This document shows, piece after piece, positions 27,001-30,000 of a DNA stretch of 64,000 bases. How positions within the stretch are numbered: the stretch's first letter is position 1; every line of letters starts with the position of its first letter. A program made the position numbers. Origin of the DNA: Podarcis erhardii. Taxonomy: Eukaryota. The stretch is from NCBI GenBank assembly GCA_964252035.1, contig OZ176217.1; one strand, written 5' to 3'.

Positions 27001-30000
27001 ATTATTATTTTCACTCTCCAGGAAATGTTCAAGAAGCCAAAGGAAGGCACCTGTTGCAACCAGATGCTACGCCACTGACTAGGCTCTTGCATCATTGATA
27101 CATAAACTCACCAAACAGGCTTTTGACATTATTCATGATGCATTTCTGAAGGTGTTATAATTTTATTTTATTTTATTTGAATAATAATAATCTAGAAGTA
27201 TAAAATGGTTCCAGAAGCACTGCCAATGGCAGGAATGGCAGAAACCAGGAACAGGCAATCTCTGAGAGCTGCTCTCCTCCCCCACCCCAAATTATTTTTA
27301 TTAAATTATTACAAATCAAACAAAATTAATTTAATACAATTTCTTAAAATCAGATTTCATGTTCCTGTTGCAAGCATATGTTGATCATTTCCTCCATAGC
27401 CGCATCATCTCTTATTTAATATCCAGTTATCATTCTTCACTTGCTGTTAGTCCATCTGAGAGCTGCTCTCTTTTCCAGTGGGCAGGCATATATTTTGCCA
27501 CTCATTCAAAACCCTTCTCTATGGTCAGGCTATTTAATAAAGTCTACGCTAACCAGTTGTAAAATTCTTACTAGTCTGGAGCACTTGCATTTAAGTCAGG
27601 GCCAGATTTAGGTTTGATGAGGCCCTAAGCTACTGAAGGTAATGGAGACCTTTATATGCCCAGCTGTCCTTTGTCAACAACAAATTGTCACTGTTTTTTG
27701 TGCTGAATGTATGCTAAATGGTAATTTATGGACATAATAGGTATCTAAAGCCATTTGCACATAACAAAATATGTATTTTACCAGTGATATTTTAGGGAGC
27801 AGGCTAGCAGGCGGGGCCCATTATTTACATCATAGTGTTGGCTTCTGTTTTGTCTTCCCTCCACAACACAAAACACTCTATGTAGGTTTTATTTTATTGG
27901 CAAAGGAGTGGGAGGAGCAGGGGCGTGCGGTCAGTGAACTAAGGGGACTAGGTTTATCCTCTAAATGTTCCTGGTAAAGTAGAGTAATATTATTTATTTT
28001 TTACATATAAACAGAATATAACTTTAATTTTAAAACCGAACATTCTGCTTTATACAAGCAGCCCTCTTCTAAAGTATCTCCAAACTTGAACTCAAACATC
28101 CATGTGCAAGAATAATCAATTTGAAAGAATACAGATACGTGCTCAAAGGCATATCACACTTGTTCCATGATCATCAGAAGGGAATCTGGGTTTGTTGCTT
28201 CAGTTCTAAAAACAGAAACTTCTTTTTCAAACCAAGACAAAACCTCTTGGCAGTTGCCACCTCAACACTGTTCACAAATAGAAAAGTTTGTCGGCGAGTG
28301 CCAGGCTAGGCTCTCTGTGGATGCTCTGGCCCACCAAGAAAGTCAGCATGCTGGCATACTGGCATGGTGCTGGCACCCTGATTAGGCCAGGCCAGTTGTA
28401 GTACAGGTGGCACATCTTATACGTAAGATGCTGCATGTCTTCTGGCTTGAATCTATCATAAACCACATTGTAGTATGTGGGATTGACAGTGCCCTGGTGA
28501 GCAAGTTGGCTACTTAAGAAGAAGTTGTACCATTCAGGTCGAGTAGCCTCTGTGTCAATAACTGTCCCAATGGGAGGGTTTTGTAGGTTTCTGTTGGTCT
28601 CGAAGAAACGATGAAGGGATTTCTTCCTGACCACAACCACCTATAGTTTGGCTTTTCTGAAGCCACCATTGCACTCATCGGGGGCACTTAGTATCTGTGG
28701 GACTTCAAAGTTCACCACCACCTTCAACTGTCCATCTCCAGTGCTGTCACGGTACGCTATTATGTGTGCAGGCAGCTGCCCATTACATGCTTGCAATTTA
28801 CTTACAGAATCTTTCATGCAGACCTTTAAACAAACTACGATGTTTGATCCTGAATTTTTCAGTGTGCAACGAGAATACCACCTAGTCAGTTGGAAATTAG
28901 AGCTGGCCACAAACCCAATGGTCAAAGCATCTTTGTTGACACCAATGCCGATGACCATGACAGATTTCAGTGGTATCTCAACTGCTCACAGTGCCCCTCC
29001 AAGCTTAAACTATTAAAGCCTGGCACCTGCTTCCCAACACTTCTGCCCACCTTATGGAGGCGGCACGATGCTCCGACAGGGTCCAAGAGCCCTCCTTCCC
29101 AAAGCCCACCTGGCTTTGGGAAGCAGGAAGCAGGCCTGGTGCTTCTTCCCCAAAGCCTGGGAAACTTCTGCTCAGGTTAGGCAATGGAGAAGAAAGCAAT
29201 AGGAAGGTAAAGGGAAATGACTGGTGTGCATCACTGAACACTCTTGCAGTGAAAAGAGCAACTCAGACTGCAAAACAAATGAGCAACAGAAAATATGAAA
29301 TGCTGGGATGCGATAAATACAAATTATTATCAAACAGCTCCTTCCAGAATTTATATGAAACACAGATGCATTCAGCATTTCCTCTGGGTATTTCCACTCC
29401 CGCGTTAAGCACTGGGCTTAATCCAACCTGCCTCCCCTTTGTACCTGTTGCAATCAAACCACAAAGTAGCAGGCAAAGCCTATTAGGCAGCTTCAAACAG
29501 CAGTCAGGGAGGACTTATCAGCTTCTGTGTAATGATAGTCTGGCAGTATTGTATTCCAAACTTCTCAATGAACCATGACACCAAAACATAAACAAGGTCA
29601 AACAATCGGTTTAAGCTCTTTGCGCAGTGATGCAGCAATGCATCCTTCCCTGAAATGGCTGGTATCCATATTCTAGCTTAGGGGTTGCCAACACGGTGCT
29701 CATGGGCTCCAGGTTGGTGGCTCCTGCAAATTTTGTGGAGAGGTGAAAGAATATGTTTTTTTTTTAAAAAAAAAAAAAACACCACAGCAACTGTGCAAAC
29801 TTCCTTCACCTAGAAGCTGCCCAGAGTGACTAGGGAAACCCAGCCAGATGAGAGGTGTATAATTTGTTGTTGTTGAATAGGATGTCCCTATTTTCATTGG
29901 AGAAATGTGGGAGGGTGTGCCATCTTGATTTGAATCAAGTGTGCAGGAGCTTTCCCCAATTCCCCAATTAACATGCATTGGCAATGGTTACATGTAACCC

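What the first reader, a model, noticed from the sequence alone, without database searches (positions are those of the whole stretch)
27990..29006. Intronless PIWIL4-like retrocopy with a dismantled slicer site
Seen: ~245 contiguous codons of PIWI domain without introns, stops replacing the W of the ELWAVE-type motif and the S before VVVRKK, small in-frame deletions, GIDV->GIGV and YAHK->YASM (first Asp and final His of the DEDH tetrad), the middle Asp retained (YRD), and ~280 nt of probable 3' UTR with a minus-strand AATAAA at 27998-27993. Known: vertebrate PIWIL genes have several introns across this region, and retrocopies need germline expression. Inference: the piRNA effector's own mRNA was retroposed by a LINE. 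Stops without frameshifts over this length are compatible with an initially coding retrogene or just a moderately young pseudogene. If transcribed antisense or within a piRNA precursor it could feed back on the parental gene.
Basis: partly seen in the sequence, partly recalled or inferred. Interest (0 to 1): 0.68.

Follow-up and report, generated by a model that had tools for sequence, protein, structure and literature searches.

The report
Old dead copy of lizard PIWIL4
This is a decayed, intron-less partial copy of a lacertid lizard's PIWIL4 gene, an ordinary processed pseudogene shared with related lizards, and most of its "broken" catalytic site was already missing in the working parent gene.

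Summary
On the minus strand, 29009..28275 reads 245 codons of the PIWI domain in one frame, with two stops, three in-frame deletions and an AATAAA at 27998-27993.

It is a 5'-truncated, intron-less copy of lacertid PIWIL4, covering residues 618-869 of the 869-residue Podarcis muralis protein at 79% identity. It is not PIWIL1 or PIWIL2.

The "dismantled slicer site" is mostly inherited. Lacertid PIWIL4 itself reads D-N-D-S/N, and all 25 named lepidosaur PIWIL4 rows lack the catalytic His. Only Asp to Gly (GIDV to GIGV) is specific to this copy.

The copy is not young or private. Two database proteins share its odd substitutions and form one clade with it: a 275-aa "piwi-like protein 4" of Lacerta agilis and a 202-aa model of P. 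muralis. That clade is sister to crown lacertid PIWIL4.

The first 24 residues of the L. agilis model match the window 24 of 24 at 35762..35691. This is an upstream exon with a consensus splice donor, 6.7 kb 5' of the copy.

Amino-acid changes hit conserved and variable sites equally, which indicates neutral decay. Weak hints of an early coding phase remain. No poly(A) tail proper and no target-site duplication survive.

Verdict: ordinary processed pseudogene, low interest.

The parts
28275..29009 (-). Body of the retrocopy. It holds 245 codons colinear with residues ~617-869 (the C-terminal PIWI domain) of lacertid PIWIL4.
   Evidence: A single tblastn HSP covers 29006..28275: 199 of 252 identical to P. 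muralis PIWIL4, E 2e-117. Pfam Piwi matches.
28272..28274 (-). Natural stop codon TGA, at the same place as the parent's C-terminus (...LFYL).
28986..28988 (-). Premature stop TGA in place of the Trp codon of the LWAVE motif. It is private to this copy.
   Evidence: The L. agilis copy keeps the Trp.
28641..28643 (-). Premature stop TAG in place of the Ser before VVVRKK. It is private to this copy.
28941..28943 (-). GGT (Gly) at the first Asp of the catalytic tetrad. This is the only tetrad change that arose in this copy.
   Evidence: The pattern there is D>G in the window copy only.
28842..28844 (-). Asn at the glutamate-finger position of the tetrad. It is inherited from the lacertid parent.
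   Evidence: Aligned to the Glu of PIWIL1 and PIWIL2 chains. Podarcis and Rhineura PIWIL4 have Asn here too.
28350..28352 (-). Ser at the catalytic His position (YASM). The Ser is inherited from the parent (YASK); only the following Lys to Met is new.
27987..28271 (-). Probable 3' UTR remnant. It holds ATTAAA at 28028-28023, an A-rich run at 28002-27987, and AATAAA at 27998-27993 inside that run.
   Evidence: Read. It is not repeated elsewhere in the window. It could not be compared with the parent's 3' UTR.
29004..29005 (-). AG used as the splice acceptor in the L. agilis gene model. Exon 2 of that model starts at the codon corresponding to 29003.
   Evidence: Residue 25 onward of P0315 aligns from 29003. 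Residues 1-24 lie 6.7 kb upstream.
35691..35765 (-). Upstream exon. It starts ATG ATG and runs 23 further codons to CAG, followed by GTAAGT. It is 24 of 24 identical to the N-terminus of the L. agilis 275-aa model.
   Evidence: tblastn E 3e-15; sequence. Only P0315 shares it in the protein search.
27665..27901 (.). Dispersed repeat that bounds the locus on its 3' side. It is not part of the retrocopy.
   Evidence: About 78-80% identical to 54061-54303.

Best explanation
A spliced PIWIL4 mRNA of an ancestral lacertid lizard was reverse-transcribed and inserted away from the parent gene. Only its 3' third was copied: the last ~252 codons plus the 3' UTR.

The insertion happened after lacertids split from amphisbaenians and before the Zootoca/Lacerta/Podarcis radiation. 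The same copy therefore sits in Lacerta agilis and Podarcis muralis, where annotation pipelines call it a gene.

It lacks the N, PAZ and MID domains. It inherited a parent catalytic site that was already non-canonical (D-N-D-S). It has since drifted without protein-level constraint. In this genome it has gained two stops, three deletions and Asp to Gly.

It lies 6.7 kb downstream, on the same strand, of a short exon with a consensus splice donor. The L. agilis model splices that exon onto the copy, so the copy may be carried in a spliced, here non-coding, transcript.

Shown: identity, colinearity, truncation, shared ancestry with the two other copies, the inherited tetrad, and the uniform substitution pattern. 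Inferred: LINE-mediated origin, orthology of the three loci, and transcription.
For: Identity and paralogue
- one colinear hit, 29006..28275, to residues 618-869 of the 869-aa P. muralis PIWIL4. No second PIWIL4 piece lies in the 64 kb.
- of the 120 best full-length hits listed (929 passed), 118 are named piwi-like 4 and 2 carry no name. The best are Podarcis at 80% and Rhineura at 77%.
- (40 rows): the PIWIL4 clade excludes PIWIL1 and PIWIL2 at 99/99. The window copy with the two database copies scores 99/95. That group with the five lacertid PIWIL4 scores 100/99. Adding Rhineura scores 99/97.

Lack of introns
- Gene models of other species break homology at four points inside the region: EIP|LKS, CMK(D/G)|ALS (four independent models), DESS..AKLS, and PEW|YDF.
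- The window reads straight through all four.
- In L. agilis the copy lies on a 40.4-Mb contig and PIWIL4 lies on a 100.7-Mb contig.

Neutral decay
- changes per column class (>=95% conserved, 70-95%, <70%) are 13/106, 9/57 and 5/43 (chi-square p 0.78).
- Controls in the same test: Tiliqua 1/107, 4/58, 11/43; Sceloporus 2/107, 12/58, 12/43; Rhineura 1/107, 3/57, 2/34.
- private changes in conserved columns are 6/10, 6/13 and 5/12 for the three copies, and 3/7 on their shared stem. Conserved columns make up 89 of the 171 columns used.
- end branches of the copies are 0.10-0.12, against 0-0.023 for lacertid PIWIL4.
- about 45-50 random substitutions reproduce the ~12-13% amino-acid change and predict 1.5-1.7 stops. 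Two are seen.
Against: - No poly(A) tail proper remains, only a 16-nt A-rich run.
- There is no target-site duplication. The best flank match is 7 of 10, and 450 of 500 shuffles reach it.
- No LINE reverse transcriptase was identified in the window. Of ten long ORFs scanned, one matched GIY-YIG and nine matched nothing.
- The parent's introns are inferred from protein models, not from genomic DNA.
- All three indels are in frame.
- The L. agilis copy has no stop and no indel in 251 codons.
- The shared stem of the copies is short: 5 changes against 6 on the PIWIL4 crown stem, compared with 61 against 19 inside the crowns (Fisher p 0.065).
- The upstream exon is 24 of 24 identical between the window and L. 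agilis, while the body is 77% identical. By inference 0.77^24 is about 0.002.
- These last four points would also fit an early coding phase.
Confidence: 0.85

Rival explanations
1. Former chimeric retrogene. After insertion the copy recruited the upstream ATG exon and encoded a PIWI-domain-only protein. That protein was kept by selection for part of the lacertid stem, and perhaps still is in L. agilis. It later died in this genome.
For: - The L. agilis model has an intact 275-aa frame that starts in the upstream exon.
- That exon is conserved 24 of 24 with a consensus donor in the window.
- All three indels here are in frame.
- The stem of the copies is short relative to the PIWIL4 crown stem: ML 0.034 against 0.041, while later branches differ about five-fold. 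Parsimony gives 5:6 against 61:19, p 0.065.
Against: - Stem changes already hit conserved columns, 3 of 7.
- The L. agilis copy's private changes do the same, 5 of 12. Its branch (0.12) is as long as that of the stop-bearing window copy.
- The product would lack the N, PAZ and MID domains and a working tetrad.
- An intact frame has roughly a 0.17-0.2 chance with respect to stops alone.
- Intact frames are the ones that get annotated, so the sample is biased.
- The p value is marginal.
Confidence: 0.2
2. RNA-level role. The locus is transcribed, either sense from the upstream exon or antisense or inside a piRNA precursor. It then acts on parental PIWIL4 mRNA as a decoy or as a source of small RNAs.
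For: - The upstream exon, donor and acceptor are preserved on the same strand.
- A preprint voices the general idea for PIWIL2 retrocopies in amphibians (10.64898/2026.06.26.734816, passages).
Against: - No expression or small-RNA data could be consulted.
- There is no CpG island at the exon.
- The Rfam scan of the window gave no match.
- The body evolves at the same rate as expected for unconstrained sequence.
Confidence: 0.07
3. Not a retrocopy. It is instead a DNA-level partial duplicate of PIWIL4, or cDNA contamination or an assembly artefact.
For: - Poly(A) tail and target-site duplication are missing.
Against: - It is colinear across four exon-junction positions.
- It is 20% diverged from any lacertid PIWIL4, with stops, so it is not fresh cDNA.
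- Related copies exist in two other species' assemblies.
- It is embedded in ordinary repeat-bearing DNA.
Confidence: 0.02

Closest known systems
RefSeq model 'piwi-like protein 4' of Lacerta agilis, 275 aa (P0315), and UniProt A0A670KFH4 'Piwi domain-containing protein' of Podarcis muralis, 202 aa (P0137)
   Same: - Same 5' limit.
- Same derived substitutions: W>L, T>A, L>P, I>S and R>H in all three. M>T and G>S are shared with the Podarcis model only.
- One clade at 99/95.
- The N-terminal exon of the L. agilis model is present in the window.
   Different: - Those two are annotated as protein-coding.
- The L. agilis frame is intact, and both keep the first Asp.
- The window copy has two stops, three deletions and Asp to Gly.
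Lacertid PIWIL4, the parent gene (P0003, P0124, P0128 and others)
   Same: - 82-84% identical over 243 columns.
- Same Asn and Ser at the second and fourth tetrad positions.
   Different: - The parent is 845-890 aa with N, PAZ, MID and PIWI domains, and it has introns.
- The copy holds only the last 245 codons, has no introns and is disabled.
Piwil1 retrogene of the spiny toad (PMC8574217; passages read, its Fig. S4 not seen)
   Same: - A vertebrate PIWI-family gene copied through mRNA and recognised by its lack of introns.
   Different: - The toad copy is described as intact and expressed in gonads.
- This one is truncated, comes from PIWIL4, and is disabled.
PIWIL2 processed pseudogenes of amphibians (bioRxiv 10.64898/2026.06.26.734816; passages read)
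   Same: - Retrocopies of a piRNA-pathway effector. The feedback idea is raised there.
   Different: - A different paralogue and a different lineage.
- That paper reports a genome-wide tally, not this locus.
Drosophila Piwi with a DVDK tetrad (PMC7015924; passages read)
   Same: - A nuclear PIWI that lost the Glu and His of DEDH and does not slice.
- Lepidosaur PIWIL4 shows the same two losses by sequence.
   Different: - This concerns the parent gene, not the pseudogene.
- No lizard protein has been assayed.

Membership tests
Processed pseudogene (mRNA-derived retrocopy) | Colinear with the spliced mRNA; the parent's introns are absent | tested here: met
   A single HSP spans 252 residues. 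It crosses four positions where PIWIL4 gene models of other species break or insert sequence. The test is indirect, because no parent genomic DNA was available.
Processed pseudogene (mRNA-derived retrocopy) | Located away from the parent gene | tested here: met
   No other PIWIL4 piece lies in the 64 kb. In L. agilis the sister copy and PIWIL4 lie on contigs of 40.4 and 100.7 Mb.
Processed pseudogene (mRNA-derived retrocopy) | Poly(A) tail after a polyadenylation signal | tested here: inconclusive
   ATTAAA lies at 28028-28023 and AATAAA at 27998-27993. Only a 16-nt A-rich run remains, at 28002-27987.
Processed pseudogene (mRNA-derived retrocopy) | Target-site duplications flanking the insert | tested here: not met
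   The best flank match is 7 of 10, and 450 of 500 shuffles reach it. One search gave nothing convincing. Decay over this age is expected, so the test is weak.
Processed pseudogene (mRNA-derived retrocopy) | Disabling lesions and no selective constraint | tested here: met
   There are two stops. Changes fall uniformly over conservation classes, p 0.78, unlike three functional controls.
PIWIL4 orthogroup (PIWI-clade Argonaute) | Groups inside PIWIL4, apart from PIWIL1 and PIWIL2 | tested here: met
   The PIWIL4 branch scores 99/99 with Vipera and Hyperolius PIWIL1 and lamprey PIWIL2 outside it. Among the 120 best hits listed, 118 are named piwi-like 4.
PIWIL4 orthogroup (PIWI-clade Argonaute) | Full N-PAZ-MID-PIWI architecture | tested here: not met
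   Only residues 618-869 of 869 are represented.
Slicer-competent Argonaute | DEDH catalytic tetrad | tested here: not met
   The copy reads G-N-D-S. The parent reads D-N-D-S or D-N-D-N.
Functional retrogene | Open reading frame | tested here: not met
   Stops lie at 28988-28986 and 28643-28641. Read from the upstream exon's frame, only five codons of the copy precede the first stop.
Functional retrogene | Transcription and a recruited promoter or 5' exon | not testable with these tools
   An upstream exon with a GTAAGT donor is present and matches the L. agilis model. No RNA data are on hand.

The most novel reading that the evidence does not exclude
Lacertine lizards carried, and Lacerta agilis may still carry, a lineage-specific chimeric gene. 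It joins a newly recruited ATG exon to a retroposed, slicer-dead, PIWI-domain-only fragment of PIWIL4. Selection kept it for a time as a modulator of the nuclear piRNA pathway, either as a protein or as a spliced RNA. The window shows its dead ortholog.
Probability: 0.1. Interest if true: 0.6.

Novelty: new member of a known kind. Interest (0 to 1): 0.25.

Why it matters
In itself it matters little. Processed pseudogenes are common, and retrocopies of PIWI genes are already on record in amphibians.

It has three modest uses:
- It warns that two public annotations probably describe pseudogene copies. These are the 275-aa 'piwi-like protein 4' of L. agilis and the 202-aa Piwi-domain protein of P. 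muralis.
- It gives a dated neutral marker for lacertid phylogeny and substitution rates.
- It preserves several ancestral PIWIL4 residues that all five sampled lacertid PIWIL4 proteins have since replaced.

The more interesting by-product concerns the parent. Lepidosaur PIWIL4 has lost the Glu and His of the catalytic tetrad, much as fly Piwi has.

Tried and rejected
- More PIWIL4 pieces upstream or downstream. tblastn with three PIWIL4 proteins at word size 2 and E up to 10 found none.
- Target-site duplication. Repeat search and a shuffle test showed nothing beyond chance.
- LINE machinery in the window. Ten long ORFs went to Pfam. One matched GIY-YIG (a Penelope-like element) and nine matched nothing. 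My guess that 35057-35389 is an L1 tail found no support.
- Host gene of the upstream exon. The protein search found only the L. agilis model. The exon region is not repeated in the window and has no CpG island. The host stays unknown. I did not run a six-frame domain scan of the window.
- Exon map from gaps in 124 aligned PIWIL4 rows. This was uninformative. Short or aberrant models served instead.
- Rfam scan of the whole window. No match.
- Literature. No paper on a lacertid PIWIL4 retrocopy turned up. None turned up on loss of tetrad residues in squamate PIWIL4.
- Paralogue assignment to PIWIL1. The best solved structure is a PIWIL1 chain, but no PIWIL4 chain appeared in those lists. The tree settles the assignment.
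Full report
OBSERVATION

The window is vertebrate DNA: GC 42.4%, CpG observed/expected 0.26, and one N run at 38858-39018 that I left alone. I take it for lacertid lizard DNA, not human, for the reasons given below.

On the minus strand, 29009..28275 is one frame of 245 codons ending at the natural TGA at 28274-28272. 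It is interrupted by two stops:
- TGA at 28988-28986, in place of the Trp of LWAVE.
- TAG at 28643-28641, in place of the Ser before VVVRKK.

The two open halves match Pfam Piwi at E 4.3e-15 (profile positions 73-182) and E 7.3e-36 (positions 191-302 of 302).

WHICH GENE

I read the sequence through with X at the internal TAG and searched it against full-length proteins. 929 proteins passed E 1e-20, and the best 120 are listed. Of those, 118 carry a piwi-like-4 name and 2 carry no name.

Identity falls with phylogenetic distance:

| Taxon | Identity |
|---|---|
| Podarcis muralis | 80% |
| Rhineura | 77% |
| Tiliqua | 72% |
| Sceloporus | 71% |
| Turtles | about 70% |
| Mammals | about 60% |

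I built a maximum-likelihood tree of 40 rows. It held 34 PIWIL4 rows chosen from the stored hits, two PIWIL1, one lamprey PIWIL2 and three copies. Most mammal and frog rows and the aberrant Hemicordylus isoform were left out. PIWIL4 separates from PIWIL1 and PIWIL2 at 99/99. The window copy falls inside the lacertid part of PIWIL4. So it is PIWIL4, not PIWIL1 or PIWIL2.

IS IT A RETROCOPY

tblastn of three squamate PIWIL4 proteins against all 64 kb gives one colinear hit, 29006..28275. It covers residues 618-869 of the 869-residue Podarcis protein, with 199 of 252 identical. Nothing else rises above noise. The copy is therefore 5'-truncated and lacks the N, PAZ and MID domains.

I had no lizard genomic DNA, so I inferred the parent's introns from gene models that go wrong at exon edges:
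- Four independent short models (Varanus, Sarcophilus, Prolemur, Catagonus) all start their homology at CMK(D/G)|ALS.
- A Phrynosoma model starts at PEW|YDF, and a Varanus model inserts 19 residues at that same point.
- A Hemicordylus isoform breaks at EIP|LKS.
- Podarcis Ensembl isoforms differ at DESS..AKLS.

The window reads straight through all four points. In Lacerta agilis the sister copy lies on a 40.4-Mb contig and PIWIL4 on a 100.7-Mb contig.

The 3' end is soft. ATTAAA at 28028-28023 is followed 21 nt later by a 16-nt A-rich run (28002-27987). Either hexamer could be the polyadenylation signal, and the run could be a decayed tail.

No target-site duplication survives. The best flank match is 7 of 10, which 450 of 500 shuffles reach. 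A dispersed repeat begins at 27901. LINE mediation is inference only. The only mobile-element domain I found in ten long ORFs is GIY-YIG, from a Penelope-like element.

THE 'DISMANTLED SLICER SITE'

Alignment to solved PIWIL1 and PIWIL2 chains fixes the four tetrad positions. The spacing matches Siwi Asp670/Glu708/Asp740/His874 as given in PMC7015924 (passages). The copy reads G-N-D-S.

The parent is already non-canonical:
- Podarcis PIWIL4 reads D-N-D-S and Rhineura D-N-D-N.
- L. agilis reads YANK and Zootoca YASK at the His motif.
- All 25 named lepidosaur rows lack the His; they carry S, N, Q or R.
- All 24 squamate rows among them lack an acidic second residue.
- All 4 turtle rows read D-D-D-H, as do 65 of the 120 rows overall.

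Only Asp to Gly (GAT to GGT by inference, at 28943-28941) and the Lys to Met next to the former His arose in the copy.

RELATIVES OF THE COPY

The profile-free search of 1.84 billion representatives gave a 202-aa protein at 84% identity. It is UniProt A0A670KFH4, a 'Piwi domain-containing protein' of P. muralis. The near-length search gave a 275-aa 'piwi-like protein 4' of L. agilis at 78% identity.

I compared the three copies over 171 columns. In these columns all three copies are present, and five lacertid PIWIL4 rows plus Rhineura all agree.

| Pattern | Columns |
|---|---|
| Changed in all three copies | 7 |
| Window and Podarcis copies only | 4 |
| Window and L. agilis copies only | 3 (two of them to different residues) |
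| Podarcis and L. agilis copies only | 1 |
| Private to window copy | 10 |
| Private to Podarcis copy | 13 |
| Private to L. agilis copy | 12 |

The seven changes common to all three are W>L, T>A, L>P, I>S, R>H, D>V/V/N and R>H/H/C. The three copies form one clade at 99/95, with window plus Podarcis copy at 98/86. That clade is sister to the crown of Zootoca, Lacerta and Podarcis PIWIL4 (100/96).

The window copy's two stops, three deletions and Asp to Gly are private to it.

The first 24 residues of the L. agilis model resemble no PIWI protein. They match the window 24 of 24 at 35762..35691, on the same strand and 6.7 kb upstream. They are preceded by a second ATG and followed by GTAAGT. The rest of the model aligns from 29003, just after an AG.

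So the loci share their flank and are most simply orthologous. I searched the exon and the body separately and did not build or search the joined model. In the window, the frame entering from that exon would meet the first stop after five codons of the copy.

SELECTION

I scored columns in which the five lacertids and Rhineura agree, and binned them by conservation among the other PIWIL4 rows. The alignment held 124 PIWIL4 rows; ten duplicate isoform rows of the lacertid cluster were dropped first.

| Sequence | >=95% conserved | 70-95% | <70% | chi-square p |
|---|---|---|---|---|
| Window copy | 13/106 | 9/57 | 5/43 | 0.78 |
| Tiliqua | 1/107 | 4/58 | 11/43 | 2e-6 |
| Sceloporus | 2/107 | 12/58 | 12/43 | 6e-6 |
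| Rhineura | 1/107 | 3/57 | 2/34 | 0.17 |

Private changes of all three copies, and the shared stem changes, hit conserved columns at about the share those columns have among the 171. The copies' end branches are about five times those of PIWIL4. A simulation of random substitutions reproduces the amount of amino-acid change at 45-50 hits and predicts 1.5-1.7 stops. Two are seen. This is neutral decay.

WHAT DOES NOT FIT NEATLY

- All three indels are in frame. From recalled pseudogene indel spectra, this has roughly a 1% chance.
- The L. agilis copy has no stop and no indel. For stops alone the chance is about 0.17-0.2.
- The copies' common stem is as short as the PIWIL4 crown stem, although later the copies evolve about five times faster. 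ML lengths are 0.034 against 0.041. Parsimony counts are 5:6 on the stems against 61:19 inside the crowns, Fisher p 0.065.
- The upstream exon is better conserved than the body. By inference, 0.77^24 is about 0.002.

Together these leave room for an early coding phase or for a functional upstream exon of an unknown host transcript. None of them is strong, and intact frames are the ones that annotation pipelines report.

LITERATURE

- PMC8574217 (passages read) reports an intact, expressed Piwil1 retrogene in the spiny toad. Its supplementary figure could not be seen.
- A 2026 preprint (10.64898/2026.06.26.734816, passages read) lists PIWIL2 among the top parents of processed pseudogenes in amphibians and raises the feedback idea.
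- A review (PMC13617376, passages read) calls PIWIL4 slicer-incompetent.
- I found no paper on this locus.
- I found no paper on tetrad loss in squamate PIWIL4.

LEFT UNCHECKED

- No eukaryotic genome DNA, RNA-seq or small-RNA data were available.
- The species of the window was not determined.
- The host gene of the upstream exon is unknown.
- The parent's 3' UTR could not be compared.

VERDICT

This is an ordinary, old, 5'-truncated processed pseudogene of lacertid PIWIL4. Its catalytic site was mostly lost in the parent, not in the copy.

Noticed in passing
Related proteins P0003-P0037 and P0093. The inherited states are visible in the window at 28844-28842 and 28352-28350.: PIWIL4 of lepidosaurs has lost catalytic-tetrad residues. 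All 25 named rows lack the His, and all 24 squamate rows lack the acidic second residue, while all 4 turtle rows keep D-D-D-H. The pattern resembles the DVDK tetrad of slicer-dead Drosophila Piwi. I found no paper on it.
   Followed up: partly
P0315 (Lacerta agilis, 275 aa) and P0137 (Podarcis muralis, UniProt A0A670KFH4, 202 aa): Two public annotations call copies of this retro-pseudogene protein-coding. Their substitutions fall on conserved PIWI sites as often as on variable ones, so they are probably pseudogene models.
   Followed up: partly
window 19046-20074 (-) and 20020-20781 (+): An inverted pair of near-identical long ORFs. One carries a GIY-YIG nuclease domain (Pfam E 6e-6), which suggests Penelope-like element remnants.
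   Followed up: partly
window 53100-53900: The only CpG-rich stretch of the window (GC about 0.6, CpG observed/expected 0.8-0.94). It overlaps an 89-bp tandem repeat at 53524-53843. It could be a repeat-borne CpG island or a distant promoter.
   Followed up: no
window 27665-27901 and 54061-54303: Two copies of a dispersed repeat, about 78-80% identical and in the same orientation. One abuts the 3' side of the retrocopy.
   Followed up: partly
window 29018-29160: A cluster of short inverted repeats (arms of 16-26 nt, 73-94% complementary) lies directly upstream of the retrocopy's 5' limit. It may be a small foldback element or the old insertion target.
   Followed up: no
window 35560-35640: A long A/T-rich low-complexity stretch lies in the intron just downstream of the upstream exon.
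   Followed up: no
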